Part shown: piece by piece, positions 1,924-48,736 of the stretch
How positions within the stretch are numbered: position 1 is the first letter of the stretch
How the letters are laid out: every line of letters begins with the position of its first letter
Translations under genes and position numbers: made by a program
Assembly: GCA_040397215.1 (NCBI GenBank)
Contig: JBBAWK010000004.1
Strand: one strand, 5' to 3'
DNA length: 64,000 nt
Source of the DNA: Candidatus Limnocylindrus sp.
GTDB lineage: Bacteria; Chloroflexota; Limnocylindria; Limnocylindrales; Limnocylindraceae
Notes under the pieces: generated by a model
Databases searched by the model: none
The model's input: the letters and a program-made list of their open reading frames with translations, nothing else
What the model was told of the DNA's origin: nothing

Positions 1924-1970
1924 ACGCAGATGGTACGCCGACCCTCGGAAACGTGGGATAGAGTGGGTGT

Positions 1971-7264: not shown

Positions 7265-7275
7265 GGTCCACTCCT

Positions 7276-7314
7276 TTGCCCCGCCGGCCGATCTCTGCCG
7301 ACCACGTTGCGGGT
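7276..7314 (-). promoter_or_regulatory. Candidate PyrR-binding stem-loop in the pyrR 5' UTR
   Basis: Minus strand reads GGUCGG-CAGAGA-UCGGCC (7286-7303) with a CNGNGA hexaloop, on a lower CCCGC/GCGGG stem next to the SD; TG-C-TATCGT -10 just upstream. Confidence 0.55.
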
Positions 7315-7337
7315 GCTGCGGAACGATAGCAGGGTGG

Positions 7338-8303
7338 CTAGGCGAGGGCGCGGCGCAGTTCCACAACCGCCTCCTCAGGGGAGATCGGCACCACGGGGAT
7401 GCCTGAGGCGAGTTCCAGCCCGCCGATCGGGCGGAGGCGCGGGTGGAGCTCCCAGTGCCAGTGATAGGTGCCATCGACGCGCTCGCGCAGGGGCGCCGTA
7501 TGCAGAATCAGGTTGTATGGCGGCATGCCGATCGCCCGTAGTGCCCGGACCGCGGTCTGCAGGGTGCTGGCGAATCCGGCGATCGTCGCCGCATCGGTGT
7601 CGGCGAAGTCGGCACTGTGGTTGTTCGGAACGATCCACGTCTCAAACGCCGAACGGCTGGCAAAGGGGGCAACGACCAAGCCGAACGGATCGCGATGGAG
7701 CATGCGTCGTCCGCCGTGCGACTCATCGGCAACGAGGTGACAGTAGGCGCAACCGCCGGCGCGAATGGAGAGGCGCGCCGCGCCACCAATCTCTTCGGCG
7801 AGTCGGTGCGGCACCTGCGGCAGGTCGTAGGCCTCAAAGCAGAGGTGATCGGTCATCGCCCCCGCCTGACCCCCTGCGTTGCGAACATATTGAATGTAGG
7901 CGGTTGCGCCAAGATCACGCGCGCTGCGCAGGTGATCTCGGATCGCCATCAAGAATGCCGACACCACAGCCACCGGCACCTCATCGAGCTCGCCATGTTC
8001 ACGGCCTGGCGCAATAAGGGTTGACCACGAGCCCGCGCGGTCCACATCGCTCAGCGTGAGGAATCCAGATTCCCCAGCGGCGGCATCCATGCGCGTGCCC
8101 ACAGAGTGGAATGCACCTTGGCGCAGCACGCGTCGCGTTACCGCTGCGGCATCAGACTGCGCACAGTTCGTGCACTCCGCTTCGCGAGCGCCAGATGTGC
8201 GCGCCTCATGGAATCGTTTCGGCTCAAACTCGCGATCAACGACGGTTGCCGACCACCAGCCGGTGATCTCGTCGCGACGCAGCTCCCAGATACCACCGCT
8301 CAT
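7338..8303 (-). CDS. GalT-like (galactose-1-phosphate uridylyltransferase family) protein with altered HxH motif
   Basis: ELRRDEITGWW, CAYC, APFASR...ETWIVP, PYNLILH, YHWHWELHPR, GGLELASG. Confidence 0.8.
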   Translation of the reverse strand: MSGGIWELRRDEITGWWSATVVDREFEPKRFHEARTSGAREAECTNCAQSDAAAVTRRVLRQGAFHSVGTRMDAAAGESGFLTLSDVDRAGSWSTLIAPGREHGELDEVPVAVVSAFLMAIRDHLRSARDLGATAYIQYVRNAGGQAGAMTDHLCFEAYDLPQVPHRLAEEIGGAARLSIRAGGCAYCHLVADESHGGRRMLHRDPFGLVVAPFASRSAFETWIVPNNHSADFADTDAATIAGFASTLQTAVRALRAIGMPPYNLILHTAPLRERVDGTYHWHWELHPRLRPIGGLELASGIPVVPISPEEAVVELRRALA

Positions 8304-9037
8304 CGTGAACCCCCGGCAGCTGCAGGAACTGCGCTGTTCACATGAACGCTAGCGCTCGTGCCGTACGCGGCAAGTTCGCTGTCGTACGCCGCGGCAACGA
8401 GATCGGCAACGCTTTGCAGATCAGGGGCCGTGGTACCGATGGAATCACGCTCGCCGCGCGCCGTCGCCGCCCAATCTTGCTCCAGGGCAATCGAGGTCGA
8501 AACTATGCCGGCGTGACCACACGGATTGATCAAATCAAATGGCGCGAGGTCCCGCCCAACATTGAGCGCAAGGCCGTGCCAGGCCACACCACGCTCTACG
8601 CGCACGCCGACCGCACCAATCTTGCGCTCGCCCACCCAGCAGCCGGGCGCGCCATCACGGCGCTCTGCGGCGATATCGAACGCCGCACACGCCGCAATCA
8701 GCGCAGCCTCGAGTGCACGAATGTGCACACGCAGCGAAATTCCGTTCTGGCGCAGCGCTACGACCGGATACATCACCAGATGCCCAGGGCCGTGATAGGT
8801 CACCTCGCCACCGCGCTCTACGTGTCGCACGGCGATGCCGCGCGCGACGTAGTCGGCTTCAGAGAGCAGTAGATGGCTCGGATCGGCGTTACGCCCCAGG
8901 GTCATCACGGGATCGTGTTCCAACGTGAGCAGGGTGTCGCGACCGCGACCCGCAGCCCGCTCGGCCAGCAGTGTGCGCTGCAGGGCATGCGCCTCGTCGT
9001 AGCCGATTCTTCCGAGCCAGCGGTGCTCAAACTCCAT
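8300..9037 (-). CDS. lipB: Lipoyl(octanoyl) transferase
   Basis: LEHDPVMTLG, RGGEVTYHGPG, KIGAVG, HGLALN, INPCG; ATG 9037 lies 6 nt after TACGCT. Confidence 0.93.
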   Translation of the reverse strand: MEFEHRWLGRIGYDEAHALQRTLLAERAAGRGRDTLLTLEHDPVMTLGRNADPSHLLLSEADYVARGIAVRHVERGGEVTYHGPGHLVMYPVVALRQNGISLRVHIRALEAALIAACAAFDIAAERRDGAPGCWVGERKIGAVGVRVERGVAWHGLALNVGRDLAPFDLINPCGHAGIVSTSIALEQDWAATARGERDSIGTTAPDLQSVADLVAAAYDSELAAYGTSASVHVNSAVPAAAGGSR

Positions 9038-9155
9038 GCCCAGAGCGTAGCGTCTCGCACTCACATTTACCCGCGCTTGGCTCCCTTCAACCCCTCCACC
9101 GCACGTCTAGAACCCACTTTCTCTACAATTGCGCAAACACTGAAAGGAGCATCAA

Positions 9156-10181
9156 ATGGCAGACTCCACATTCAAGGTCGGGCTCCTCGCCTACGGCGCG
9201 ATCGGAGATGAGCATCACCGCGCGATCCGCTCGGCGCCTGGGCTGACCCTCACCGCCGTCTGTGACACCAATCCGGATCGCATCAGCGCCGCCCTCGCAA
9301 TCTCTCCCGACCTTCAAACCTTCACCGACGCCGAACTGATGCTTGAACGGTCCGGGATCGAGCTTGTCGTGATCTCCACGCCTCCAAACAGTCACTTTAA
9401 GTGGGCACAGCGCGCCTTGACGCTTGGCCTGAACGTCATTCTTGAGAAGCCGATGGCACTAACTACTAACCAGTGCGATGAGTTGATGGCTCTGGCCAAG
9501 GCCAAACAACTCCTGCTCGTCGTCTATCAGAATCGGCGCTACGACCGAGATTTCATCACCTTGAAGTCGCTGATTGACCGTGGAGAGATCGGTGAGGTGT
9601 TCTCCTATGAAAGTTTTGTTGGCGGTTACTCCGAGCCGTGCGCCCTATGGCACTCGATGACCGATGTTTCAGGTGGCGCGATCTTCGATTGGGGGAGTCA
9701 CTTCATTGATCAGATCATGGCGGTGGTGCCTGCGAAGATTCAGAGCGTTTCGGGTCTCAATCAGAAGCGGGTCTGGCACCACACGACGAATGCGGACCAC
9801 GCGCAGGTGACCATCAACTTCGAGGGAAACGCGCAGGCAACCTTCATCAATTCTGACCTTGCCGCTGCGCGCAAGCCCAAGTTCTACGTCCTTGGAACCA
9901 AGGGGGCGATCGTTGGCGACTGGGACACTTCGGGGACTGGCGCGGTTGCCGATCTGCCAGCGATCATCACGATGCACAGGGATGGTGCAGCCACTCAAAT
10001 TCCCCTCATGGATCGGCCAGCCACGTCATTCCACACAAGCGTTGGCGCATACCTGCAGAGCGGAACAGTAATGCCCGTTACCGCTGAGCAGTCACGCGAT
10101 GTCGTTGCGATCATGCAGGCGGCCGAGGAGTCCGCACTGACCTCCGGTGCACTTATTCGGCCCGCGCTCATCAGCCGCTAG
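9156..10181 (+). CDS. Gfo/Idh/MocA family oxidoreductase
   Basis: Rossmann N-terminus, EKP, YQNRRYD, GGAIFDWGSH; SD AAGGAG. Confidence 0.88.
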   Translation: MADSTFKVGLLAYGAIGDEHHRAIRSAPGLTLTAVCDTNPDRISAALAISPDLQTFTDAELMLERSGIELVVISTPPNSHFKWAQRALTLGLNVILEKPMALTTNQCDELMALAKAKQLLLVVYQNRRYDRDFITLKSLIDRGEIGEVFSYESFVGGYSEPCALWHSMTDVSGGAIFDWGSHFIDQIMAVVPAKIQSVSGLNQKRVWHHTTNADHAQVTINFEGNAQATFINSDLAAARKPKFYVLGTKGAIVGDWDTSGTGAVADLPAIITMHRDGAATQIPLMDRPATSFHTSVGAYLQSGTVMPVTAEQSRDVVAIMQAAEESALTSGALIRPALISR

Positions 10182-37555: not shown

Positions 37556-38497
37556 ATGTCACCGAATACCTCGTGGATCTTCCCTGGGCAGGGCTCGCAG
37601 AGCGTCGGCATGGGTGCCGCCGCCCTCGCAGCCTCCCCCGCCGCGCGGGCCGTGCTCGCTGAGGCTGAAGCCGCCCTTGGCCAGCCGCTCGGCCAGCTGA
37701 TGGCGACCGGCCCGGTCGAGGCCCTCGAGCGTACCGAGGTCGCACAGCCCGCCATCCTCACCATCTCCATCGCCATGCTTGCCGCCGCGCGCGAACGCGC
37801 CGCAGCCGCAGACACCCCACTCGACGAGCCGATCCTGATCGCCGGACACTCGGCCGGCCAGTACGCCGCCGCGGTCGCCGCGGGCGCACTCTCCGTTGCT
37901 GATGGTGTCCGACTCGCGCGCCGACGCGGCGAGCTGATGCAGGCATCGGGTGGCGGACGACCCGGCGCCATGGCCGCCATCCTCGGTCTTCCTGAGAGGG
38001 CCGAGGCCGACGTGATCGCCGCTGGCGCAAAGCTCGGCATCTTGGTCTTCGCCAATCGCAACTCGCCGGGGCAGATCGTGCTCTCCGGTGAAGTCGCCGC
38101 CATCGAAGCGGCCGTTGCCGCAGCAAGCGCCGCCGGCGCAAAGCGCGCCGTGCGACTGCAGGTCAGCATCGCCAGCCACTCACCACTGATGGAGGAGGCC
38201 GCCGCCGGCATGCGCGAGGCGCTCGCCGCCGTGACCATTGCCGATCCGAAGACCCCGATGCTCGCCAACGCCACCGCCGCGCGCATCACCACCGCCGCGC
38301 AGCTACGCGACGAACTCTCGAATCACCTCACCGGTGGTGTTGACTGGATCGCCGCGGTGAATGCGATGGCGGCCGCTGGCACGAAGCGCTACATCGAGGT
38401 CGGCTCGGGTCGTGTGCTCGCCGGACTCGTCAAGCGCATCCCATCGGCCGACGGCGCCGAGATCCTCTCCATTGAAGAATTAACCCCAGCAGCCTAA
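37556..38497 (+). CDS. fabD: Malonyl-CoA:ACP transacylase
   Basis: FPGQGSQ, AQPAI, GHSAG, RGELMQ, ASHSPLM, EVGSGRVL. Confidence 0.94.
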   Translation: MSPNTSWIFPGQGSQSVGMGAAALAASPAARAVLAEAEAALGQPLGQLMATGPVEALERTEVAQPAILTISIAMLAAARERAAAADTPLDEPILIAGHSAGQYAAAVAAGALSVADGVRLARRRGELMQASGGGRPGAMAAILGLPERAEADVIAAGAKLGILVFANRNSPGQIVLSGEVAAIEAAVAAASAAGAKRAVRLQVSIASHSPLMEEAAAGMREALAAVTIADPKTPMLANATAARITTAAQLRDELSNHLTGGVDWIAAVNAMAAAGTKRYIEVGSGRVLAGLVKRIPSADGAEILSIEELTPAA

Positions 38498-38515
38498 GAG
38501 GGAAGGAGCAGCAGC

Positions 38516-39781
38516 ATGCGCGAGCCAGATCACACCCGACGCGTCGTTATCACCGGACTCGGCATCGTCTCACCGATCGGCAACACCGTTGGCGACGTGT
38601 GGACATCACTCACCGAAGGTCGCAGCGGCATCGCGCAGATCACCCACTGGGACCCAACCCCTTACGCGCCATACGTGGTTGCTGGCGAGGTGAAGAACTT
38701 TGACGTCACCCAGTTCCTCGACGCCAAGCAGATTCGCCGCACCGGCCCCGAGATCCATTGGGGCGTTGCAGCGGCGAAGGCCGCCCTGCGCGACTCGGGG
38801 CTCGAGATCACCGACGCGAACCGCGAAGAGGTCGGCGTGGTCTTCGGCTCGGGCGCCGGTGGGCAGGGCCTCTTCATTGAGAACCAGATGAGCTGGAAGG
38901 AGAAGGGGCCGCGCGCCGTTGCCCCGACCTTCATCGCCCACGGTCTCGTTGACAGCACCTCAGGAATGATCGCTATCGAATCGGGTGCCGTGGGGCACAA
39001 CCTGGCGGTCGTCTCCGCCTGCGCCACCGGCACGCACGCCTTGGGCGAGGCGGCTGAGGCGATCAAGCGCGGCGACGTGACCGCCGTCATCGCCGGCTCC
39101 ACCGAGAACCCCCTCATCGAGGTGGCCCACATTGGCTTCATGAACATGCGCGGACTTGCCAGCCCGCGCGACGGCGAAGGGCCAGCATCGGCCTGCCGAC
39201 CGTACGACGTGGATCGCGCGGGCTTCGTTCTTGGCGAAGGGGCGGGCGCCTTCATCGTCGAGGATCTCGCATCAGCCACAGCGCGCGGCGCCACGATCTA
39301 CGCCGAGGTTGTTGGCTACGGCAGCTCCGCCGATGCACACGACATGATCCAGCCGATCGAGGGCGGCGCCGGTTCGGCGCGCTCCATCAAGTGGGCGCTG
39401 CAGCGCGGCAAGATCGACTCAACGGAGATTGACCTGATCAATCCGCACGGCACCAGCACGCCGGTGGGCGATGAGCGCGAGGCGCTCGCCTTCCACGCCT
39501 CCTTCGGGCCACGTGCGGCAGAGATTCCCATCTCAGCAACGAAGTCGTTGACCGGCCACCTCATGGGTGCCGCGGGTGCGGTTGAGGCGGTATTCACGAC
39601 CCTCTCGCTGCATCACCAGGTGATTCCGGGAACGCTCCATACGAAGAACGTCGATCCCGCCTGTAACCTGAACGTCAACCTCGAAACACGCCCGGCCGAG
39701 ATTCGCGCCGCGGTGAGCAACAACGTCGGGCTCGGTGGGCATAATGGCGCCATCGTGTTGCGACGCTGGACCGGAAAGTAG
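38516..39781 (+). CDS. fabF: Beta-ketoacyl-ACP synthase II (copy 1)
   Basis: RVVITGLG, SACATG, HGTST, KSLTGHLMGAAG (Cys-His-His triad). Confidence 0.9.
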   Translation: MREPDHTRRVVITGLGIVSPIGNTVGDVWTSLTEGRSGIAQITHWDPTPYAPYVVAGEVKNFDVTQFLDAKQIRRTGPEIHWGVAAAKAALRDSGLEITDANREEVGVVFGSGAGGQGLFIENQMSWKEKGPRAVAPTFIAHGLVDSTSGMIAIESGAVGHNLAVVSACATGTHALGEAAEAIKRGDVTAVIAGSTENPLIEVAHIGFMNMRGLASPRDGEGPASACRPYDVDRAGFVLGEGAGAFIVEDLASATARGATIYAEVVGYGSSADAHDMIQPIEGGAGSARSIKWALQRGKIDSTEIDLINPHGTSTPVGDEREALAFHASFGPRAAEIPISATKSLTGHLMGAAGAVEAVFTTLSLHHQVIPGTLHTKNVDPACNLNVNLETRPAEIRAAVSNNVGLGGHNGAIVLRRWTGK

Positions 39782-39789
39782 GAGGAGCC

Positions 39790-41067
39790 ATGAGCACCAC
39801 CCCAGTACGAACCGATGCCCAGCGCGCGGTCATCACCGGCTACGGCGCCATCACGCCAATCGGCAATAGCGCCGGCGAGTACTGGGAGAGCCTGATCGCA
39901 GGACGCTCAGGTGCAGGCCTCATCACCCACTTCGACGCCTCACCAAACGACGTGCGCATCGCCGCCGAGGTGAAGGGCTTCGATCCGCTCCTCACCATGG
40001 ATATGAAGATGGCGCGCCGCATGAGCCGCTTCGTGCAGTTCGCGATCGCCGCCGCGACCGAAGCCATCGAACATGCTGGCCTCGCCGACATCGCCAGCTG
40101 GGAGCCGGAGCGCCGCGACCGCGTCGCCACGGTCATCAACACCGGCGGTGGTGGCATCGAGCAGGTCACCATGGGGAGCGATGCGTATCGCGAGAAGGGT
40201 GGCCGCTTCGTGAGCGCCTTCGCCATTCCCGCCCTCAGCCCAAGCATGGGCGCCTGCATGGTCAGCATGAAGTACGGCCTCACCGGCGCCGCGATCACGC
40301 AGGCCGCCGCCTGCGCCACGGGCGTGCTCGCCTTTCAAGATGCACTCCGCCTGATCCGCAGCGGCGAGGCCGACGTGGTCGTTGCCGGCGGCGTCGAGGC
40401 ACCACTCCTGCCGATGGCCTTCGCCGCCCTCAGCAACATGGGCGCCCTCAGCAAGCGCAACGATGACCCAACGCACGCCAGCCGACCGTTCGACAAGAAC
40501 CGCGACGGCTTCGTCTTCGGCGAGGGTGGCGCAGTCTTCGTGGTCGAGTCGCTCGCCCACGCCAAGGCGCGCGGCGCCACGATTCGCGCCGAGCTGCTCG
40601 GTGCCGGTGCAACCGCCGACGCATTCCATATCAGCGCCCCGGAGCCAACCGGCCGCGGCGCGGCAGGCTCCATGACCAAGGCGATCCTCGATGGCGGCGC
40701 CGTGATCGACGATATCAGCTACATCGTGGCGCACGGCACCAGCACCCCACTCAACGACCTCACCGAGACGAAGGCGATCAAGCGCGCCCTTGGCGATCAC
40801 GCCTACAAGATTCCGATCAGCTCCCCAAAGAGCATGGTCGGCCACCTCTTGGGTGGCGCTGGCGCCGTTGCCGGGCTCGCCGCCATCAAGGCAATCGAGA
40901 CGGGCACCGTGCCACCAACGATCAACCTCGACACCCCAGACCCAGAGTGCGACCTCGACTATGTGCCGCACACCGCGCGCACGAATCAGCCAGTGGACCG
41001 CGTGCTGATCAACGGATTTGGCTTCGGTGGCCAGAACGCCTCAGCGCTCTTCGGGAAGCTCCGCTAG
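39790..41067 (+). CDS. fabF: Beta-ketoacyl-ACP synthase II (copy 2)
   Basis: AACATG, HGTST, KSMVGHLLG, NGFGFGGQN. Confidence 0.92.
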   Translation: MSTTPVRTDAQRAVITGYGAITPIGNSAGEYWESLIAGRSGAGLITHFDASPNDVRIAAEVKGFDPLLTMDMKMARRMSRFVQFAIAAATEAIEHAGLADIASWEPERRDRVATVINTGGGGIEQVTMGSDAYREKGGRFVSAFAIPALSPSMGACMVSMKYGLTGAAITQAAACATGVLAFQDALRLIRSGEADVVVAGGVEAPLLPMAFAALSNMGALSKRNDDPTHASRPFDKNRDGFVFGEGGAVFVVESLAHAKARGATIRAELLGAGATADAFHISAPEPTGRGAAGSMTKAILDGGAVIDDISYIVAHGTSTPLNDLTETKAIKRALGDHAYKIPISSPKSMVGHLLGGAGAVAGLAAIKAIETGTVPPTINLDTPDPECDLDYVPHTARTNQPVDRVLINGFGFGGQNASALFGKLR

Positions 41068-41112
41068 TAACTCACCACACAACAGAGCGGCCTTTTAAGC
41101 ACGCGGGAAACA

Positions 41113-41149
41113 GTTCGGCCCGACCCGCACGAGGCGGATCGGGCCGAAC
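41113..41149. terminator. Hairpin terminator between fabF and RCC1 gene 1
   Basis: GTTCGGCCCGA...TCGGGCCGAAC stem, followed by UGUUU on the minus strand. Confidence 0.75.
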
Positions 41150-41167
41150 GATTGAACTAGCTAACCG

Positions 41168-42193
41168 TTACTGCACAGCCACCGGGACTGAGCTGTCGGT
41201 CGGGCCTTGGCCGTTGCCAAGGTTGCCGTTGCCGTTATCGCCCCAACAATAGATTGTGCCCCTATCGGTGAGCGCACAGATATGGTAGTCCCCTGTCGTA
41301 TAGGAGACCGCCCCACGCACCGCCATCGTCTGCGGAGTGAAATTTCGCCAAGGGGTTGCTGAGACGCTTTCTGGGAACATCCCATCAGAGGTGTACCCCA
41401 CGCACTGCATCTTCCCGGAACTCATCCCGTAGCACTGCGAGAATGACTCGGGGCTACTGCCAGCAATTGAGGTGTATTTCGCGCCACCCATGGCGAGGGT
41501 CGGAACGGAGGAATTAGTAAAATTGCCGTTCCCGAAGGTGCCGTAAAAGTTTTCGCCCCAGCCGTAGGCTTTTCCTTGTGTCGATAGGGCGCTAGTGTGA
41601 CCGAAACCGAGCGAGAGATCCCTGAACTTCAGGCCGCCGGCAACGGCGACAGGCACCGAGCTGTCATCGAGTTCTGCATCATTATCGCCGAGTTGTCCAT
41701 ATTGGTTCCGGCCCCAGCAATAGGCACGCCCCTGGGCAGTAAGGCCGCAGCTGTGTTGGCCGCCTACCTCAAGGCTCGCGAACTTCAGGCCGCCAGCAAC
41801 GGCGACGGGGACAGAACTTTCAGAATCTGGATCTTCGAGGGCTGAGCCATTGCCGAGCGCACCGTAAGGGCCATCTCCCCAGCAGTAGGCTTGACCATTA
41901 GTGGTGAGGCCGCAGGTGTGAGACTCGCCCGCCCCAATGCTCGCGAACTTCAGGCCTCCGGCGACAGCGACGGGGGTCAAGACATGTGCACTCGTTGACC
42001 CGTTGCCAAGCTCGCCCCGGTTATTGTGACCCCAGCAGTAGGCGTCTCCTCGCGCGGTCAGCGCGCAAGAGAATTGAAAGCCCACTGAAAGCGCCACATA
42101 GCGCCGACTGGCGGCATCAGCAGAAGTCGCGCCAGCCGCGACAAGGGTGAGGACCGCGAGCAGCGTGACGCTGCGGGTCAGTAAGGTACGCAT
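41168..42193 (-). CDS. Secreted RCC1/BLIP-II repeat beta-propeller protein (1)
   Basis: Signal peptide MRTLLTRSVTLLAVLTLVAAG; repeated HxCxLTxxGxAYCWGxNxxGQLG...PVAVAGGLKF; SD AGGAGG. Confidence 0.88.
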   Translation of the reverse strand: MRTLLTRSVTLLAVLTLVAAGATSADAASRRYVALSVGFQFSCALTARGDAYCWGHNNRGELGNGSTSAHVLTPVAVAGGLKFASIGAGESHTCGLTTNGQAYCWGDGPYGALGNGSALEDPDSESSVPVAVAGGLKFASLEVGGQHSCGLTAQGRAYCWGRNQYGQLGDNDAELDDSSVPVAVAGGLKFRDLSLGFGHTSALSTQGKAYGWGENFYGTFGNGNFTNSSVPTLAMGGAKYTSIAGSSPESFSQCYGMSSGKMQCVGYTSDGMFPESVSATPWRNFTPQTMAVRGAVSYTTGDYHICALTDRGTIYCWGDNGNGNLGNGQGPTDSSVPVAVQ

Positions 42194-42346
42194 TCGTTCG
42201 CCTCCTGGCGAACCCGGCGGGCGGAGGTCCGCTACTTGCTGGAACCTGGCGGCAACGTGCCCCTTACGGTCCAGCGTGCGTGAAGGGCACCAGATGTGAG
42301 GGAGTCTCCCAATGGGGTTGCGACGCGGGTGGGGGAGATACCCCAA

Positions 42347-42418
42347 GACCGCGTGCTGATCAACGGCTTCGGCTTCGGCGGCCAGAACGCCTCTGCGCTA
42401 TTCGGAAAGCTTCGCTAA
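42347..42418 (+). pseudogene. fabF: Duplicated 3' end of fabF (last 23 codons plus stop)
   Basis: Encodes DRVLINGFGFGGQNASALFGKLR*, identical in protein to 40996-41067, with 8 third-position differences. Confidence 0.92.
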
Positions 42419-42511
42419 TAAGCCACGGCGCAACAGAGCAACCCCTGTGCACACACCGCCACGTCGTCACGCATAACGTTTCGAACTTCTCGACGCGGAA
42501 CACAGTAAACA

Positions 42512-42548
42512 GTTCGGCCCGACCCGCACAAGGCGAATCGGGCCGAAC
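42512..42548. terminator. Hairpin terminator downstream of RCC1 gene 2 (paralog of 41113-41149)
   Basis: Same GTTCGGCCCGA...TCGGGCCGAAC stem, with 2 substitutions in the upper part. Confidence 0.75.
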
Positions 42549-42566
42549 GAGTTAACCATCTAGCCG

Positions 42567-43811
42567 CTATTGCACAGCCTGCGGACCCTTCTCGTCGGAG
42601 GCGTCCGTGGTGCCATCTCCGAGCTGACCGTCGTTGTTGTAGCCCCAGCAGTAGGCCTTGCCTCGTGCCGTGAGGGCACAGGTGTGGGACTCCCCGCCCC
42701 GAACGCTGGCAAACTTGAGTCCACCAATCACCGCCTGTGGGCCGTTCTCATCGGAGTCGTTCGTGGTGCCATCACCGAGCTGACCGTCGACGTTGTAGCC
42801 CCAGCAGTAGGCGCGTCCCTTTGCGGTAAGAGCACAAGTGTGAGATTCGCCAGGGTTGATGCTGGCAAAGCGTAGTCCACCGATGACCGCCTGTGGGCCG
42901 TTCTCATGCGAGTCGTTCGTGGTGCCATCACCGAGCTGACCGTCTTCGTTGTCTCCCCAGCAGTAGGCCTCACCATTCACAGTCAAGGCGCAGGTGAAAT
43001 TGTGTCCCCCGTCACGGCTCACGTTCAGACTGGCGAACGTATGGTTGCCAATCACTTTCTGCGGGCCGTTCTCATACGAGTCGTTCGTGGTGCCATCACC
43101 GAGCTCACCCTGGCTGTTTGCGCCCCAGCAGTAGGCCTCACCATGTGCAGTCAAAGCGCAGGCATGATCGTCGCCGGCGCTGATGCTGACAAACTTGAGT
43201 CCGCCGATCACCGCCTGTGGGCCATTGACGCCGGATGCGGTCGTGGTGCCATCCCCAAGCCGACCGTCGCCGTCAGCACCGCCGTTAGCACCCCAACAGT
43301 ACGCCTTACCCCGCGCTGTGACGGCGCAGGTAAACAGATCGCCGGCGCTGATGCTGACAAACTTGAGTCCGCCGATCACCGCCTGTGGGCCATTGACGCC
43401 GGATGCGGTCGTGGTGCCATCCCCAAGCCGACCGTCGCCGTTAGCACCGCCGTTAGCACCCCAACAGTAGGCGCGCCCTTTGGTGGTCAGAGCGCACGTG
43501 TGGTCTTGGCCGGCACTGATGCTGGCAAACTTGAGTCCACCGATCACCGCCTGCGGGCCGTTCTCAAGGGAGTTGTTCAAGGTGCCATCACCAAGGGCGC
43601 CAGCCGGAACCATAACGAAGTCGCCATTGTAAGAACCTTGAGATCCCCAGCAGTAGGCCTGGCCTCGTGCCGTGAGGGCACAGGTGTGGTCTCCGCTAGT
43701 CGTGATTTGCACATAACGATTGCCACTTGCGGCAACAGCAGAAGTCGAGCCCGCCGCGACAAGGGTGAGGACCGCGAGCAGCGTGACGCTGCGGGTCAGT
43801 AAGGTACGCAT
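42567..43811 (-). CDS. Secreted RCC1/BLIP-II repeat beta-propeller protein (2)
   Basis: Same signal peptide; seven repeats of CALTxxGxAYCWG...LGDGTT...GPQAVIGGLKF. Confidence 0.9.
   Translation of the reverse strand: MRTLLTRSVTLLAVLTLVAAGSTSAVAASGNRYVQITTSGDHTCALTARGQAYCWGSQGSYNGDFVMVPAGALGDGTLNNSLENGPQAVIGGLKFASISAGQDHTCALTTKGRAYCWGANGGANGDGRLGDGTTTASGVNGPQAVIGGLKFVSISAGDLFTCAVTARGKAYCWGANGGADGDGRLGDGTTTASGVNGPQAVIGGLKFVSISAGDDHACALTAHGEAYCWGANSQGELGDGTTNDSYENGPQKVIGNHTFASLNVSRDGGHNFTCALTVNGEAYCWGDNEDGQLGDGTTNDSHENGPQAVIGGLRFASINPGESHTCALTAKGRAYCWGYNVDGQLGDGTTNDSDENGPQAVIGGLKFASVRGGESHTCALTARGKAYCWGYNNDGQLGDGTTDASDEKGPQAVQ
43171..43469. repeat. Near-perfect internal direct repeat (131 bp, period 168 bp) in RCC1 gene 2
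   Basis: 43171-43301 versus 43339-43469 differ at one position by my reading. Confidence 0.85.
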
Positions 43812-43994
43812 TCGTTCGCCTCCTGGCGAACCCGGCGGGCGGAGGTCCGCTTACTGCTGTGACCTAGTGGCAACTTGCCCCTTCACGATCCAGCGTAGTG
43901 GGAAGGTACCAAATGTGAGGGAATCTTCCAATAGGGCTCCGACACGGGTGGAGGAGATACCCCAAGACCGCGGGCGGCGCCGCCCTCGGACACG

Positions 43995-44292
43995 CTAAGC
44001 GGTGAGCCTCAAGCGCCGAAGGCGCAGGGCGTTTGTTACCACAGTGACGCTGGAAAGGTCCATGGCGGCGGCCAAAACAGGACCCAATCCAATGCCGAAG
44101 GCCGGGAGGGCGAGGCCCGCGGCGAGTGGCACGAGGAGGATGTTGTAACCAAAGGCCCAGCCAAGGTTCTGCTTGATGATGCGCGTGGTGGCACGCGCGA
44201 GATCAACAAGGAGCGGCACGCCGCGCGAGTCTGCGCCGCTCATCGTTGCAGCTGTCGCGTCGATGGGGATCTCGGTGCCCCCACCTATAGAT
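43995..44292 (-). pseudogene. copA: Decaying duplicate of the copA 3' end
   Basis: Encodes GTEI...SGADSRGVPLLVDLARATTRIIKQNLGWAFGYNILLVPLAAG...SSVTVVTNALRLRRL, matching copA ~46370-46662; small indels; no 5' part. Confidence 0.9.
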
Positions 44293-44315
44293 CGGCTGTG
44301 ATTGCACCTTCCAAA

Positions 44316-45524
44316 CTACGCCGGCAGTTGCTGCCGCCATGAAGAGAAACTCCGAACTGATCCTGCAGCCGGCAGCCTCAGCCATGGATATGGGTGCACC
44401 TCAGCGAGTGACGTGAACTTCCTAAACGAAGGAACGGGCGCAAAGGTCACGGCTACCGAGTGCTCCTGTGCAAACTGATAGGGATCACCGATGTATGCCT
44501 CTACACCTCGCTGCGCACTGAGCTCGCCAAGGGCCTGCAGATAGAAACCAATTCGCCGCGCGCTCAGCTGTAGCTTCCTCAGCGCACTCTCATTGAAGAC
44601 AAAGAGCGCGGGCAAGGTTGGATTGGCCACAAGCGCTGGATCCTGCAGTCCGAGAGAGTCAATCGTCAGGAGCACATGCGTTGCGGGGCGTTGGATTCTG
44701 GGCGTGATCGGCCCAGTGGTGCGCTGCACGTCAGGGTCGTTGTCGAGCTGCGAATCTCGCTCGAGCTGTTCTAGTTGGACCTCGCGCGGGAATTCCTCGA
44801 TCGGGCAGTTGGCCTTGAGCGGACATCGTGAACAGATGCCTGGCGCTCGCTTGTCCACCTGCCACTTTGCAAAGCCGTAGGGCTTACCAGTGCCTGCACC
44901 GACCGTCCACTGCCATCCAAGCAGGTTGGCGGCCCTGGAGCCATCGATGAGCTCTTGGTGCATGCGCTCCTGGCCCGAGATCCAGCCAACACCATTGCGA
45001 ACCGTCCAATGGGATGCCAGCCACATGCGAGTCTGATTGACGAGCCAGCCATCCCCCTCGAGCTCAGAGACAACTTCGTCGATGCAGAGCATCTCCCGAT
45101 TCCAGCCGTTCCCCTCGCCACTCCAGTTGGCGGCAAAGCGCAGGTTCTCGAAGAGGCGCACTCCAATGCGGGCGTAGAGGTGCCGCGCATACTCCTGCCA
45201 CCAGAGCTCATCGCGAAACTTCTCACGATCTTTGGCTGGTGCACCCTGTACGGCGTCATAGACCTGGCGCAGCGTGATCATGTTGTGACGAATGTATGGA
45301 GAGAGCACGCTCGCGCCTCGATTCGCCCGTGGAAGCACTTGCGAGCGGCGGTCGGCGTACCCCCTGATATCAAGCTGCTGGAGCGCCCTGTCGGCCGCCT
45401 GTTGCCCGCCGCTGATTGAGCTCAGGCCAAGCGTCCCTGAATAGAGGCCCTCGAAGTGTTCGGCCAGTAGTTTGAGGGGGTCCTCGGTCGCATCGATCTT
45501 CTTTAGGCCGAGGGGGGTCACCAT
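44316..45524 (-). CDS. Photolyase/cryptochrome family protein with an N-terminal FAD-binding domain (NewPHL-like topology)
   Basis: YADRR, SVLSPYIRH, KFRDELWWQEY, GWLVNQTRMWLASHW, LIDGSRAANLLGWQW; C-terminal alpha/beta domain; start overlaps or abuts the SDR stop (45521/45524). Confidence 0.82.
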   Translation of the reverse strand: MVTPLGLKKIDATEDPLKLLAEHFEGLYSGTLGLSSISGGQQAADRALQQLDIRGYADRRSQVLPRANRGASVLSPYIRHNMITLRQVYDAVQGAPAKDREKFRDELWWQEYARHLYARIGVRLFENLRFAANWSGEGNGWNREMLCIDEVVSELEGDGWLVNQTRMWLASHWTVRNGVGWISGQERMHQELIDGSRAANLLGWQWTVGAGTGKPYGFAKWQVDKRAPGICSRCPLKANCPIEEFPREVQLEQLERDSQLDNDPDVQRTTGPITPRIQRPATHVLLTIDSLGLQDPALVANPTLPALFVFNESALRKLQLSARRIGFYLQALGELSAQRGVEAYIGDPYQFAQEHSVAVTFAPVPSFRKFTSLAEVHPYPWLRLPAAGSVRSFSSWRQQLPA

Positions 45525-46234
45525 GGGATTACCTGGCGCTCCTCCCACAGCACTCCGGTCAACCTCTCTTGATCGGACGCGCCATCACTGTTGAACGGTC
45601 GGGTTGCCAACCAGATCGCCGTATCTGCGCCCTCTTCGGCAGAGAGTGGTGCAGTTGGCCCGCCCATATCGGTTCGGGAGTGATTCGGGCAGACAGCGTC
45701 GATCAGGAAGCCGCGCTTGCCATGGAGCGTTTCATGCGCAAGGTTGCGCACGAGTGCATTGACCCCCGCCTTGCTCACACGGTACGGCACCAATCCCCCT
45801 GCATTGCCTGGTCCTGACATGCGACCAAGACACGCCGAGAAGACAACCACTCGCCCCTGGCGCGCCTCAGCCATTGGCTTCGCAAGAATATTGAGTGTAC
45901 AAAAGACAGAATCCAAATTAATTGAGAGCACTCGGCGCCACTCGCTAGTGTTGGTGGCAAAGGTTTTGGAGGACTTTTCACTCATCACCCCGTGCGCAAG
46001 GATCAGAACGTCGGGGGCACCGCGCGTGGCGAGGATCGCCGTGAATGCTTGCTCGGTAGCCTGGAGATCCGCGAGGTCCACACTCTGGTACTCACACCCT
46101 AGGCTTTGGGCAGCTGCGGCCAGGCGCGGTTCATCCTTTGCGAGCAGCAACACCGTTTGGCCGTTCGCCCGCAGCGCCTTGGCGCACTCAAAACCAAGAC
46201 CTCGAGAGCCCCCCGTGATCAGGGTGTATCCCAT
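45518..46234 (-). CDS. Short-chain dehydrogenase/reductase
   Basis: TGGSRGLG, YRVSK, RTDMGG...GADTAIWLA; SD AAGGAGG. Confidence 0.88.
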   Translation of the reverse strand: MGYTLITGGSRGLGFECAKALRANGQTVLLLAKDEPRLAAAAQSLGCEYQSVDLADLQATEQAFTAILATRGAPDVLILAHGVMSEKSSKTFATNTSEWRRVLSINLDSVFCTLNILAKPMAEARQGRVVVFSACLGRMSGPGNAGGLVPYRVSKAGVNALVRNLAHETLHGKRGFLIDAVCPNHSRTDMGGPTAPLSAEEGADTAIWLATRPFNSDGASDQERLTGVLWEERQVIPW

Positions 46235-46347
46235 GGCGGAGAACCTCCTTGCTTTGACTCGGCTGTCACGTGCACCTGCGGCAGAGACGACAGTTTGCCG
46301 ACCAAACTTGCGCCAATCAGTAACTCGAGAAATCCTAGCAGGGGGTG

Positions 46348-48678
46348 CTAGTTCAGCCGATCTCGCTCGAGCGGCAGTCTTCGCAGCCTTAGGGCATTCA
46401 ACACCACCGTCACGCTCGATCCGCCCATTGCGGCAGCGGCGAGTGCTGGGTCAAGGCCAATTCCGAATGTTGGAAGCAGGAGGCCGGCGGCGAGTGGCAC
46501 CAGGAAGATGTTGTAGCCAAAGGCCCAGGCAAGGTTCTGCTTGATGATGCGCGTGGTGGCGCGTGCGAGGTCCACAAGGAGCGGCACACCGCGCGGGTCG
46601 GCGCCGCTCAGCGTTGCAGCTGAGGCGTCAATGGCGATCTCGGTGCCGCCACCCATGGAGATGCCCACGTCAGCGGCGGCGAGCGCTGGGGCGTCGTTGA
46701 CGCCGTCCCCAATCATTGCCACGGGTCCACTGCCGCTGCGTCGAATCTCAGCGATCGCCTCGCCCTTACCGCCAGGGAGAATGCCGCCGCGGGCGCGCTC
46801 TGATGGAATGTTGAGATCGCGGGCGATGACGTTCACCACCTCTTGGCGATCGCCGCTGATGATCCACGACTCAATGCCGCGCGCGGTAAGGGCCCGAATC
46901 GCTGCGGCACTCTCTGGTCGAACGGTGTCGGCGAGGCTAAGTGCGCCGGCTGATTCTTCGTTGATTGAGATGAAGAGCGGTGTGCGACCAGCGGCCGCCT
47001 CTGCTGTTGCCCAGCTGGTCAGCTCAGGATTGGTAGTAGCGGTGAATGCCTCAGTGCCGATGCGTACAGCTGCGCCATCAACGCTGGCGCTTACGCCGTG
47101 ACCGGCATGCATGACAAAGTCGGTGGCCTTTGCTGCGACCGTGCCGGCGGCGCGCACGATCGCGCGGGCGAGTGGGTGCTCCGATGGACTCTCCACTGCG
47201 GCGGCAATCTGCAAGAGGCGATCGGTGTCGCCAGCGAGTGGACCGGTGGCGAGGGCGAGTCGGCCGACGAGGGCGTGCTGGCCGAGGGTGAGGGTGCCGG
47301 TCTTATCCCAGACCACGGCGCGCAGCTTCCCCGCCGCCTCGAGGATGGCGGCGTCGCGCACGAGGATTCCCGCCTCGGCGCCTCGACCAGTGCCGGCGAT
47401 CACGGCGGTTGGGGTGGCGAGGCCCATGGCGCAGGGGCAGGCGACCACGAGCACGGCGATGGCGGTGGCTACGGCGCGCACCAGGCGCGGCTCTGCTCCG
47501 AGCAGATACCAGCCGACAAAGGTCGCCACGGCGATCAACAGGATGGCCGGAACGAACACCTCGGAGATGCGATCAGCAAGACGAGCAATCGCAGGCTTCG
47601 ACCCCTGCGCCCGCTCGACCATGGCCACGATGCGTGCCAGCGTGGTGTTGGCGCCAACCTGTGTGGCGCGCATAACGATTGACGCATCGGTCAGCAGCGT
47701 GCCCGCGGCAAGTCGGCTCCCTGGGCCGCGCTCCACTGGGAGTGACTCACCGGTGATTGCCGATTCATCGACGGCGGCGCGGCCACTCACGATGATGCCG
47801 TCAACGGGAATGCGACCACCAGGCCGAATCCGCAGTAGGTCACCGGCAATGATCTTGTTCACGGCGATGGTGATTGCGGTTGGGGCGTCGGCGGTTGCAA
47901 GTAGTTCAGCCTCTTTTGGCTGCAGCGCCAGGATCCCGCGCACCGCGCTGGTTGTCTGCTCCTTGGCGCGTGCCTCCATCCAGCGACCGAGTGCGACAAA
48001 GCCGAGAATGAGTGCTGCCGCATCCCACGTTGCGTGCGCGGGAATGCCAACGCGCATCAGCTGCGAATGGAAGAGGGTAATCGCCACCGACCAACCCCAT
48101 GCCGCTGTGGTGCCAAGGCTGACGAGTGTCTCCATGGTGAGTGAGCCGTGGCGCAGTGCGCGCACTGCGCGCGAGTGGAAACGCCAGCCAACGGCGAACT
48201 GAATGATGGTGGAGGGCACGATCAGGATCCAGTTGATGCGCTCCATGCTGATGAAGAACCACGGCTGCAACATCAGCACCATTGCGCCGAAGCCAAAGGC
48301 GGTGGCAATGATTCCGTCACGAAGCAGTCCGCGCGTCTCTTTGGTGCGCGCGGCAACAAGCTCAGCATCGAGTGCCTCGCGCGCCTCCTGTGCATCGGCA
48401 TCCCCTTCGCGTCCGGCGAGAGCGAGTGCCGCGGCGGGCACTTCGTATCCCGCAGCGGTAATGACCGCAACAAGATCGGCAACGCCCGTTGCCTCTGGCG
48501 CGTATTGAATGGTGGCCATCGAGGTCGCAAGGTTCACGCTCGCCCCGCTCACGCCGTCGGCCTTCTTCAGGAATCGCTCCACGCGGTTCACGCACGAGGC
48601 GCAGGTCATGCCGGTGACGGGGAGGGCAATCTCCGCCACGGGGGTGGTTGGCGCCGCAGGAACAGGCTCAGTCAACAT
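46348..48678 (-). CDS. copA: Copper-translocating P1B-type ATPase
   Basis: GMTCASC HMA domain, TGES, CPC, DKTGT, SEHP, GDGVND, YN and MxxSS. Confidence 0.93.
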   Translation of the reverse strand: MLTEPVPAAPTTPVAEIALPVTGMTCASCVNRVERFLKKADGVSGASVNLATSMATIQYAPEATGVADLVAVITAAGYEVPAAALALAGREGDADAQEAREALDAELVAARTKETRGLLRDGIIATAFGFGAMVLMLQPWFFISMERINWILIVPSTIIQFAVGWRFHSRAVRALRHGSLTMETLVSLGTTAAWGWSVAITLFHSQLMRVGIPAHATWDAAALILGFVALGRWMEARAKEQTTSAVRGILALQPKEAELLATADAPTAITIAVNKIIAGDLLRIRPGGRIPVDGIIVSGRAAVDESAITGESLPVERGPGSRLAAGTLLTDASIVMRATQVGANTTLARIVAMVERAQGSKPAIARLADRISEVFVPAILLIAVATFVGWYLLGAEPRLVRAVATAIAVLVVACPCAMGLATPTAVIAGTGRGAEAGILVRDAAILEAAGKLRAVVWDKTGTLTLGQHALVGRLALATGPLAGDTDRLLQIAAAVESPSEHPLARAIVRAAGTVAAKATDFVMHAGHGVSASVDGAAVRIGTEAFTATTNPELTSWATAEAAAGRTPLFISINEESAGALSLADTVRPESAAAIRALTARGIESWIISGDRQEVVNVIARDLNIPSERARGGILPGGKGEAIAEIRRSGSGPVAMIGDGVNDAPALAAADVGISMGGGTEIAIDASAATLSGADPRGVPLLVDLARATTRIIKQNLAWAFGYNIFLVPLAAGLLLPTFGIGLDPALAAAAMGGSSVTVVLNALRLRRLPLERDRLN

Positions 48679-48736
48679 ACTCAGGGGGAGTATACGCCTC
48701 ATTTGATTGGTAAGTGCCTGCGGCTAGGCTGCGCGC

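What the first reader, a model, noticed from the sequence alone, without database searches (positions are those of the whole stretch)
40996..43985. Tandem RCC1 gene cassettes, each carrying a replacement fabF 3' end, bounded by GACCGCG
Seen: the unit is [GACCGCG + last 23 codons of fabF + double stop][hairpin terminator][RCC1 gene, minus strand][~155 nt leader ending GGAGATACCCCAA], and it occurs twice. GACCGCG is at 40996, 42347 and 43966, and a perfect palindrome GGGCGGCGCCGCCC (43972-43985) follows the last. The orphan tail differs from the live tail at 8 of 72 nt, all third-position and synonymous, including TAG/TAA. Inference: both tails evolved under selection as working fabF ends, so this is not a simple duplicate-and-decay event. 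Unit 1 probably arrived from a relative, supplied a new fabF end and pushed the resident tail and RCC1 allele downstream. Established: integrative elements restore target 3' ends this way, but here the unit is only ~1.35-1.6 kb and has no integrase. It may be a minimal cassette-stacking system for surface-protein variants, driven by a recombinase in trans or by homology-anchored microhomology recombination.
Basis: partly seen in the sequence, partly recalled or inferred. Interest (0 to 1): 0.85.

Follow-up and report, generated by a model that had tools for sequence, protein, structure and literature searches.

The report
Stacked RCC1 genes with orphan fabF end
Two secreted RCC1-propeller genes sit in tandem behind fabF because two diverged versions of one variable locus were joined at a chance 7-base match, a scar of ordinary illegitimate recombination and not a dedicated cassette machine.

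Summary
The unit [GACCGCG + 23 fabF codons + double stop][hairpin][RCC1 gene, minus strand][~154-nt leader] occurs twice (40996-42346 and 42347-43965). GACCGCG recurs at 43966. The tails differ at 8 of 72 nt, all third-position and synonymous.

Independent Logan contigs from two runs bridge the leader1/tail2 joint with no mismatch. The order of the units across a 99-nt exact repeat was not independently checked.

GACCGCG is not a signal: the window holds 34 copies against 33.6 expected. The fabF-ATPase gap is a hypervariable island in this genus, named Ca. Limnocylindrus in relatives' record titles. In 20 other species where the whole island is visible:
- RCC1 genes: 0 of 20.
- Orphan fabF tails: 0 of 20.
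- Orphan ATPase 3' ends: 3 of 20, joined at a different 6-nt microhomology.

The window also carries an orphan ATPase tail and a remnant of an MFS gene start. No integrase, transposase or shared recombinase site lies at the locus.

Best reading (0.6): a microhomology-mediated join of two diverged haplotypes, like homology-facilitated illegitimate recombination. This is a new example of a known process and of moderate interest.

The parts
39790..41067 (+). fabF-like beta-ketoacyl synthase (425 aa), the live gene whose last 23 codons belong to unit 1
   Evidence: Pfam PF00109 and PF02801. 97-99% aa identity to relatives' orthologues.
40996..41070 (+). Tail 1: GACCGCG plus the last 23 fabF codons and TAG TAA (live)
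41113..41149 (-). RCC1a terminator hairpin, copy of the unit 2 hairpin (2 loop differences)
   Evidence: Alignment. Coordinates come from the 1399-nt offset of the 23-nt exact run 41108-41130 = 42507-42529.
41168..42193 (-). RCC1a: secreted RCC1-like propeller, 341 aa, with an N-terminal signal-peptide-like segment
   Evidence: PF25390 175 bits. Best other protein in the 5.8-billion set is 52% identical.
42135..42233 (.). Copy 1 of the 99-nt exact repeat R (first ~20 codons of the signal peptide plus 40 nt of 5' UTR)
   Evidence: Logan contigs break here
42194..42346 (-). Leader 1 (153 nt upstream of RCC1a), ends GGAGATACCCCAA on the + strand
   Evidence: no Rfam match
42347..42353 (.). J1: the novel joint. 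GACCGCG has leader sequence on its left and fabF-tail sequence on its right.
   Evidence: bridged by contigs of X1 and X2 covering 42204-42783 with 0 differences
42347..42421 (+). Tail 2: orphan fabF 3' end (23 codons plus TAA TAA) with no fabF body upstream
   Evidence: 4-11 differences in 72 nt from the tails of the 13 closest species, all coding the same peptide in the close clade.
42446..42495 (+). Decayed remnant of the 5' end of the MFS transporter gene that follows fabF in G053 and G002. Absent from unit 1 (48-nt gap).
   Evidence: 76% over 50 nt at the syntenic place, E 1.7e-4 in 397 kb of loci; first seen
42512..42548 (-). RCC1b terminator hairpin (16 pairs) followed by a T-rich run on the minus strand
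42567..43811 (-). RCC1b: secreted RCC1-like propeller, 414 aa
   Evidence: PF25390 239 bits. 75% identical to metagenome protein P0009, 44% to RCC1a.
43753..43851 (.). Copy 2 of the 99-nt exact repeat R
43812..43965 (-). Leader 2 (154 nt), 85% identical to leader 1
43966..43985 (.). Third GACCGCG, overlapping the palindrome GGGCGGCGCCGCCC, 9 nt downstream of the orphan ATPase stop
43995..44297 (-). Orphan 3' end (~98 codons, frame intact) of a heavy-metal P-type ATPase. It copies the end of the live gene at 46348-48702.
   Evidence: 83% aa and 81% nt identity to the live tail. pS 0.50-0.56, pN 0.10-0.13 against live tails. The name 'heavy-metal P-type ATPase' is my reading of the C-terminal motif, recalled and not run against Pfam.
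44298..44315 (.). About 18 nt of filler between the ATPase fragment and the stop of g410 (joint J2)
44316..46234 (-). Module g410 (photolyase-FAD-like, 44316-45548) plus g238 (45518-46234). It abuts fabF directly in G004, G044, G045, G050 and G051.
46348..48702 (-). Live P-type ATPase (784 aa), the right-hand core flank of the island

Best explanation
The space between the convergent core genes fabF and a P-type ATPase is a hypervariable island in this genus of small freshwater Chloroflexota. In this genome, two already diverged versions of an RCC1-bearing form of the island were concatenated. Each had the layout fabF end, terminator, RCC1 gene, leader.

A single illegitimate exchange did this. 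It used a chance 7-bp match, GACCGCG, which lies once inside fabF (codon 403) and once just beyond the RCC1 leader. The product is A-X1-A-X2-A. The live fabF keeps one tail and the other tail is stranded as an orphan.

The most likely route is homology-facilitated illegitimate recombination (HFIR) of DNA taken up from a related strain. One end pairs by homology in a flanking core gene and the other end joins at the microhomology. An unequal exchange between two co-resident diverged copies would give the same product.

The same process has left other scars at this locus: an orphan ATPase tail at 43995-44297, an MFS gene-start remnant at 42446-42495, and an orphan ATPase tail in three other species. 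A 99-nt perfectly identical tract (signal peptide plus 5' UTR) shows later gene conversion or very recent exchange between the units.

Shown: the anatomy, the joint, the synonymous-only tails, the variability of the island and the other scars. Inferred: the two-lineage origin, the HFIR route, and which unit came in second.
For: 1. Structure A-X-A-X-A with exactly 7 shared bases at all three borders. Leader sequence lies left of the middle copy and tail sequence right of it.
2. A 3-10 bp microhomology at the illegitimate end is the stated hallmark of HFIR (PMC3240628, introduction passage).
3. Tails: S = 17.8 and N = 51.2 sites; 7 sense differences plus TAG/TAA, all synonymous. P = 0.0008-0.0055 if the orphan had drifted neutrally since an in-place duplication.
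4. The tails are as far apart (8/72) as either is from the live tails of the 13 closest species (4-11/72).
5. RCC1a and RCC1b are 44% identical. RCC1b is 75% identical to metagenome protein P0009. RCC1a's best other hits are 46-52% and share its odd C-terminal half. So the gene bodies split long before the flanks did.
6. The locus is a hot spot with many configurations across the genus:
 - fabF|p108|ATPase
 - fabF|p98 p108|ATPase
 - fabF|g410 g238|ATPase
 - fabF|ABC module|ATPase
 - fabF|MFS|ATPase, and other combinations
7. Other scars have other joints:
 - Orphan ATPase tail in the window, with ~18 nt of filler.
 - Orphan ATPase tail in G004 and G050 at the identical joint, within AGGCCG. 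G051 has the same layout.
 - MFS remnant in unit 2.
8. The orphan ATPase tail diverged mainly at synonymous sites (pN/pS 0.18-0.26), as a once-live end would.
9. ComEC and DprA homologues are present.
10. The joint is real in two runs. The assembly graph used k = 55, judged from 55-nt contig-end overlaps, so a 7-mer cannot create a chimeric join.
Against: - No donor or single-unit haplotype (fabF-RCC1-ATPase) was found: 0 of 20 whole islands in other species carry an RCC1 gene.
- The metagenome scan for the joint gave 4 hits, all chance.
- The homologous anchor is not demonstrated. The last 244 nt of fabF are 91-93% identical to the nearest species against 95-100% upstream. But neighbouring genes are 88-92% identical, so this may be baseline.
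- The total tail divergence (8/72) is roughly what an old in-place duplication would give, taking the leaders' 15% as a neutral yardstick. Only the pattern argues against that, and it rests on 8 sites.
- Experimental HFIR usually deletes recipient DNA at the joint (PMC3240628 introduction). J1 is purely additive.
- ComEC and DprA are widespread and do not prove competence.
- The order of the units across repeat R was not verified with reads.
Confidence: 0.6

Rival explanations
1. In-place tandem duplication. Unequal sister-chromatid exchange or replication slippage between the two GACCGCG copies duplicated one resident unit. The copies then diverged in place, with diversifying selection or conversion from RCC1 paralogues remodelling the bodies and conversion keeping the 99-nt tract identical.
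For: - The A-X-A-X-A layout with a 7-nt microhomology is the classic signature of a tandem duplication.
- The amount of tail divergence (11%) is compatible with the leaders' 15%.
- The genome holds other RCC1 paralogues that could donate sequence (C12/C1, C8).
- Other tandem paralogues exist in the genome (C1:85999-89100).
- No donor haplotype was found.
Against: - All 8 tail differences are synonymous third positions, with P about 0.001-0.005 under this model. There is no indel and the double stop is kept.
- The RCC1 bodies are 44% identical and belong to types that each have closer relatives elsewhere: 75% for RCC1b and up to 52% for RCC1a.
- The nearest in-genome paralogue is only 69% identical in DNA to RCC1b, so no recent conversion donor is visible.
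- The neighbouring orphan ATPase tail and the G004-type scar join modules of different gene content. Duplication alone cannot produce those.
Confidence: 0.2
2. A dedicated integrase-free cassette system. GACCGCG would be the crossover core of a site-specific recombinase acting in trans (for example Xer-type). RCC1 cassettes carrying a replacement fabF end would be inserted, stacked and excised as circles.
For: - A 7-bp identical core is the size of a tyrosine-recombinase overlap region (recalled, not tested).
- Two Xer-sized tyrosine recombinases exist in the genome.
- The assembly graph also allows a path in which tail2-RCC1b-R-leader1 closes on itself through J1.
- Contigs of unit 2 have about 1.4-1.9 times the depth of the flanks in both runs. 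The tool warns that contig depth is not copy number.
Against: - GACCGCG is at chance frequency: 34 found, 33.6 expected.
- The three borders share no arm sequences beyond the 7 bases.
- No second locus or second genome shows the joint or the leader: 0 of 41 genus genomes, 4 of 4 metagenome hits were chance, and 13 of 13 genome-contig hits to the tail pattern hold one copy each.
- Other borders of the same island use AGGCCG or filler.
- No integrase lies on this contig. No serine recombinase, rve, DDE or TnpB family was found.
- No match in phage or plasmid collections.
- A circle excised from a single-unit chromosome would truncate fabF.
Confidence: 0.07
3. Assembly artefact. Two strains each carry one RCC1 allele at this locus and the assembler chained them.
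For: - The sequence is a metagenome-assembled genome with 38 contigs.
- A 99-nt exact repeat lies in both units.
- Depth differs between unit 1 and unit 2 contigs.
Against: - The leader1-GACCGCG-tail2 joint is covered without mismatch by independently built contigs in two runs of two studies.
- The two contexts share only 7 bases there, far below any assembler word size. Contig ends overlap by 55 nt.
- In X1 and X2 no contig joins a fabF body to tail 2: the joint table shows 0 for both runs.
- So tail 2 is an orphan under any path through the graph.
Confidence: 0.05

Closest known systems
Homology-facilitated illegitimate recombination (HFIR) during natural transformation (Acinetobacter, S. 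pneumoniae, P. stutzeri)
   Same: Foreign or diverged DNA is added next to a homologous anchor. The illegitimate end joins at a short microhomology; 3-10 bp is stated in the introduction of PMC3240628. No integrase is needed. Here the joints are 7 bp (J1) and 6 bp (G004/G050).
   Different: This is a natural footprint, not an experiment, and the anchor is not demonstrated. J1 is purely additive, whereas experimental products usually carry a deletion of similar size (same passage). The incoming DNA is a diverged allele of the same locus, so the result looks like a tandem repeat.
Orphan arrays made by 3'-end displacement in Rhs, CDI and T6SS effector-immunity loci
   Same: An incoming module supplies a new 3' end to a conserved upstream gene and pushes the old end and its partner gene downstream. 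This leaves strings of orphans. [quoted passage not shown]
   Different: In those loci the displaced 3' end is the variable, selected cargo (toxin domain plus immunity). Here both tails encode the same 23 residues of a housekeeping enzyme and are passengers. The cargo is a separate, opposite-strand RCC1 gene.
Tandem duplication (merodiploidy) by unequal crossing-over, including transformation-induced duplication
   Same: The A-X-A-X-A layout with a hybrid middle repeat. Uptake of a fragment carrying a repeat plus its flank can trigger it (PMC3784515, passages from the abstract and the model section).
   Different: Those duplications use long repeats (IS copies, about 1 kb) and yield identical copies of 100-900 kb. 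Here the repeat is 7 bp, the unit is 1.35-1.6 kb, and the copies were already diverged.
Integrative elements that restore the 3' end of their target gene (integrase-mediated)
   Same: A duplicated 3' end of the target gene flanks the inserted DNA.
   Different: There is no integrase in or near the unit. The direct repeat is only 7 identical bases followed by a diverged 65 nt. The site is not reused in relatives.

Membership tests
HFIR product | Short (3-10 bp) microhomology at the illegitimate joint | tested here: met
   7 bp GACCGCG at J1. 6 bp AGGCCG at the G004/G050 joint. J2 has about 18 nt of filler instead.
HFIR product | Homologous anchor on one side, with a donor-derived tract running from the anchor into the insert | tested here: inconclusive
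   Against G045, fabF has 30 differences in nt 1-852, 0 in 853-1034 and 22 in 1035-1272. But neighbouring genes are 88-92% identical, so the 3' end may simply be at baseline.
HFIR product | Inserted DNA comes from another lineage | tested here: met
   Synonymous-only tails, P 0.001-0.005 against in-place decay. RCC1 bodies are of different old types. This is an inference; no donor was found.
HFIR product | DNA uptake and processing machinery in the host | tested here: met
   ComEC (PF03772, 133 bits) and DprA (PF02481, 163 bits) are present. Competence itself is not testable here.
Simple tandem duplication | A-X-A-X-A layout with a hybrid middle repeat | tested here: met
Simple tandem duplication | The copies descend from one resident unit, so divergence should look like decay in the non-functional parts | tested here: not met
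   0 non-synonymous changes and 0 indels in the orphan tail. The RCC1 bodies are 44% identical.
Integrase-mediated integrative element or genomic island | Integrase or recombinase gene in or beside the element | tested here: not met
   The unit holds only an RCC1 gene. The two PF00589 hits lie on contigs C5 and C7. No PF00239 hit. The genome is 91.6% complete.
Integrase-mediated integrative element or genomic island | The same att junction is reused in relatives | tested here: not met
   0 of 41 genus genomes carry the leader or a second tail. 0 of 20 whole islands do. 4 of 4 metagenome hits to the joint were chance.
Integron | intI, attI and repeated attC sites bounding the cassettes | tested here: not met
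   No integrase at the locus. The borders share only 7 bases, and the palindrome occurs once.
Rhs/CDI/T6SS-type 3'-end displacement array | The displaced 3' ends encode variable toxin domains, each with a cognate immunity gene | tested here: not met
   The two tails encode the same 23 residues of a ketoacyl synthase. The cargo is an RCC1 propeller on the opposite strand.
RCC1-like propeller proteins (cargo) | Match to the RCC1-like domain over the curated cut-off | tested here: met
   PF25390 at 175 and 239 bits against a cut-off of 150, plus 5-7 RCC1 repeats. The signal peptide is judged from the sequence alone.

The most novel reading that the evidence does not exclude
The fabF end travels with RCC1 cargo as a portable homology arm. 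Units would be repeatedly added by one-sided recombination. They would be lost again by recombination between the 72-nt tails or the 99-nt repeat, so either tail can become the live one. This cycling would explain why the orphan shows only synonymous change. It would amount to an integrase-free cassette exchange for secreted propeller variants in a streamlined planktonic bacterium that lacks mobile elements, and the same logic would run on the ATPase side of the island.
Probability: 0.12. Interest if true: 0.7.

Novelty: new member of a known kind. Interest (0 to 1): 0.38.

Why it matters
Streamlined planktonic bacteria such as this one have about 1.1-Mb genomes. No transposase was found here, and the only integrases are Xer-sized. 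Yet they keep hypervariable islands between core genes. How such islands gain genes without mobile-element machinery is poorly documented in nature.

This locus preserves the joints:
- two orphan 3' ends of the flanking core genes;
- one orphan gene start;
- microhomologies of 6-7 bp, in this genome and in three other species.

That is direct sequence evidence for additive island growth by illegitimate recombination helped by flanking homology. It is useful as a natural example and as a marker for strain-resolved metagenomics. It does not reveal a new mechanism.

Tried and rejected
- GACCGCG as a recognition site: rejected, chance frequency.
- Metagenome scan for the 20-nt joint: 4 stretches, all unrelated, no flank homology. 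No second scan was allowed.
- Genus-wide DNA search (42 genomes): no leader, terminator-plus-leader cassette or second fabF tail outside G000. 7 of the 41 other genomes gave no match at all, and many fabF contigs end just after the gene. So this is 'not found in those searched'.
- Rfam scan of 40900-44400 at E <= 1: 0 matches.
- Consensus promoter scan: 1 hit, inside RCC1b, no more than shuffles give.
- Phage and plasmid collections: no match.
- Ku (PF02735): no match in a 91.6% complete genome.
- Breakpoint inside fabF as proof of import: considered, then downgraded after calibrating against neighbouring genes.
- Protein search with RCC1a: 7734 hits at E <= 1e-20 among the 8000 candidates scored, but none above 52% identity. 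So no allele series could be built.
- Contig depth (unit 2 about 1.4-1.9 times the flanks in X1 and X2): noted, but not used as evidence, because the tool says contig depth is no copy number.
- Runs X4 and X5 hold only relatives' fabF and ATPase pieces. Their 'skips' come from other organisms' ketoacyl synthases aligning to tail 2.
- Papers on Limnocylindrus: a search listing of 9 papers, 8 listed. In PMC13212565, a term search found 0 occurrences each of 'genomic island', 'RCC1' and 'hypervariable'. I did not read the other papers. Supplements are closed and may hold island or strain data.
- The de Vries and Wackernagel 2002 paper is not held. I cite HFIR features only from passages of PMC3240628, PMC5361080 and PMC2884548.

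Full report
**What is there.** The window region 38516-48702 holds these genes, in order:
- a ketoacyl synthase (38516-39781);
- a second, fabF-like ketoacyl synthase (39790-41067);
- two minus-strand RCC1-like propeller genes, RCC1a (41168-42193, 341 aa) and RCC1b (42567-43811, 414 aa);
- an 82-codon open frame (43995-44243) that is the C-terminal end of a P-type ATPase;
- two minus-strand genes, g410 (44316-45548, weak photolyase FAD-domain match) and g238 (45518-46234);
- the full-length ATPase (46348-48702, minus strand).

GACCGCG lies at 40996, 42347 and 43966. From 40996 the sequence reads 23 fabF codons and TAG TAA. From 42347 it reads the same 23 codons and TAA TAA, with no fabF body upstream. 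Each tail is followed by a spacer, a hairpin whose T-run is on the minus strand (so the RCC1 terminator), the RCC1 gene, and a 153- or 154-nt leader ending GGAGATACCCCAA. The palindrome GGGCGGCGCCGCCC follows the third GACCGCG. The tails differ at 8 of 72 nt, all third positions and all synonymous.

**What is and is not beyond chance.**
- GACCGCG occurs 34 times in the window against 33.6 expected. It is a common word in a 64% G+C genome.
- Its presence at all three borders is exactly what one exchange between two copies of a short match produces.
- The middle copy has leader sequence on its left, like the third copy, and tail sequence on its right, like the first.
- Beyond the seven bases, the three sites share nothing.

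**Is the assembly sound?** The genome has 38 contigs whose ends overlap by 55 nt, so it came from a k = 55 graph. A 7-base match cannot make a false join in such a graph. Two public runs from two studies hold 96-97% of the region's sampled words; one may be the source sample. Their independently built contigs:
- cover 42204-42783 with no difference, bridging leader 1 into tail 2;
- bridge 43822-44191 and 44163-44400.

No contig of X1 or X2 joins a fabF body to tail 2 (joint table). The contigs break at a 99-nt exact repeat shared by the two units (42135-42233 = 43753-43851). So I could not check the order of the units independently. The graph also allows a path in which RCC1b closes on itself through the joint. 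Contigs of unit 2 are about 1.4-1.9 times as deep as the flanks in both runs. The tool warns that contig depth is not copy number, so I leave this unexplained.

**The wider locus.** Record titles of relatives name the genus Candidatus Limnocylindrus. Across the genus, fabF and the ATPase are convergent neighbours and the space between them varies. Configurations seen include:
- a 108-aa gene alone;
- a 98-aa plus a 108-aa gene;
- g410 plus g238;
- a four-gene ABC-type module;
- an MFS transporter;
- other sets.

In 20 other species the whole island lies on one contig:

| Feature | Count |
|---|---|
| RCC1 gene in the island | 0 of 20 |
| Second fabF tail, leader or RCC1 terminator | 0 of 20 |
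| Orphan ATPase 3' end between g238 and the ABC module | 3 of 20 (G004, G050, G051) |

In G004 and G050 that joint is identical. It lies within AGGCCG, a 6-nt match between the ATPase and the spacer that follows fabF in an ABC-only genome.

The window carries its own orphan ATPase end (43995 to about 44297, roughly 98 codons in frame). About 18 nt of filler separate it from the g410 stop. It differs from live ATPase ends mostly at synonymous sites: pS 0.50-0.56, pN 0.10-0.13, ratio 0.18-0.26, against 0.09-0.12 for three live-live pairs.

The spacer of unit 2 also holds a 50-nt remnant (42446-42495) of the start of the MFS gene that follows fabF in G053 and G002. It sits at the syntenic place: 76% identity, E 1.7e-4 in 397 kb of loci. 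The locus is a palimpsest of illegitimate joins, each with a different junction sequence.

**Were the two units one unit recently?** Three lines of evidence say no.
1. *The tails.* The live tail can change only synonymously. With 17.8 synonymous and 51.2 non-synonymous sites, and an orphan drifting freely, each difference would be synonymous with probability 0.41-0.48. Seven or eight in a row gives P = 0.0008-0.0055. The orphan also keeps its double stop and has no indel.
2. *Distance.* The tails are as far from each other (8/72) as from the live tails of the 13 closest species (4-11/72).
3. *The gene bodies.* They are 44% identical. RCC1b is 75% identical to a metagenome protein. RCC1a's best other hits, at 46-52%, share its unusual C-terminal half. 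The two genes are old paralogue types.

The caveat is that the tail argument rests on eight sites. The total amount of tail divergence would fit an old duplication.

The 99-nt identical tract contrasts with 80-90% identity on either side. It points to conversion or exchange between the units after they were joined.

**Mechanism.** The best fit is a join of two diverged haplotypes at a microhomology. This is what homology-facilitated illegitimate recombination produces: one end of incoming DNA pairs by homology, and the other joins at a 3-10 bp match (PMC3240628, introduction passage). Touzain et al. proposed it for variable segments (PMC2884548, passages). Kirchberger et al. proposed it for stacked orphan immunity genes (PMC5361080, passages). 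ComEC and DprA homologues are present.

I could not show the homologous anchor. The last 244 nt of fabF are 91-93% identical to the nearest species against 95-100% upstream. But g410, g238 and the ATPase are 88-92% identical, so the fabF end may just sit at baseline. Which unit came second therefore stays open.

**Against a dedicated system.**
- No integrase lies on this contig. The two tyrosine recombinases are Xer-sized (322 and 326 aa) and sit on contigs C5 and C7.
- No serine recombinase, rve, DDE_Tnp_1 or TnpB-type match exists in the 91.6% complete genome.
- No Rfam family matches the leaders.
- Nothing matches in the phage or plasmid collections.
- The joint does not recur anywhere I could search.

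**Verdict.** This is a clear natural example of additive island growth without mobile-element genes, in a streamlined freshwater bacterium. It is a new member of a known kind.

Noticed in passing
window 43995-44297 (-) and 46348-46650 (-): An orphan copy of the last ~98 codons of the P-type ATPase (81% nt identity to the live end, frame intact). It sits between RCC1b and g410 and is a second stranded 3' end at the same island.
   Followed up: yes
window 42446-42495: A 50-nt remnant of the start of an MFS transporter gene that directly follows fabF in G053 and G002. It is missing from unit 1 (48-nt gap).
   Followed up: yes
L036 (G004) 4418-4570; L092 (G050); L094 (G051): Three other species carry an orphan ATPase tail (33-47 aa) between g238 and a four-gene ABC-type module. 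The joint lies within AGGCCG and is identical in G004 and G050.
   Followed up: yes
window 42135-42233 and 43753-43851: A 99-nt exact repeat (signal peptide start plus 5' UTR) sits inside units that are otherwise 80-90% alike. It suggests gene conversion. It is also where independent contigs break.
   Followed up: partly
window 42204-44191, runs X1 and X2: Contigs of unit 2 and of leader2-ATPase fragment have 1.4-1.9 times the mean word depth of the fabF-RCC1a and ATPase fragment-g410 contigs, in both runs (20 vs 28-33; 16 vs 22-30). This could be a second strain, extra copies or noise. Contig depth is not copy number.
   Followed up: no
window 37556-41067: An acyltransferase gene (PF00698) is followed by two tandem ketoacyl synthase genes that are only 36% identical to each other. 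The pair is conserved across the genus.
   Followed up: no
window 44316-44330: g410 in this genome is five residues longer than in G004, G044, G045 and G050 (four longer than in G051). The relatives' stop codon reads CAG here, so the frame runs into what is spacer in the relatives.
   Followed up: partly
G000 C1:85999-89100; C7:32279-32562; C12:30566-31403 with C1:1-126: Other repeats in the genome: a ~2-kb tandem pair at 78% identity on C1, a 144-nt tandem repeat at 99% on C7, and an RCC1 gene with internal 156-nt repeats split across the ends of contigs C12 and C1.
   Followed up: no
L094 (G051) 6891-9394: The ATPase of G051 aligns in two pieces (residues 2-679 and 662-784) with about 100 nt between them. 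This may be a frameshift, an insertion or an assembly fault.
   Followed up: no
L047 (G011) 1923-2657 (-): In G011 the region after fabF holds a 244-aa membrane protein whose start looks rhodopsin-like to me. That resemblance is recalled and was not tested with any tool.
   Followed up: no
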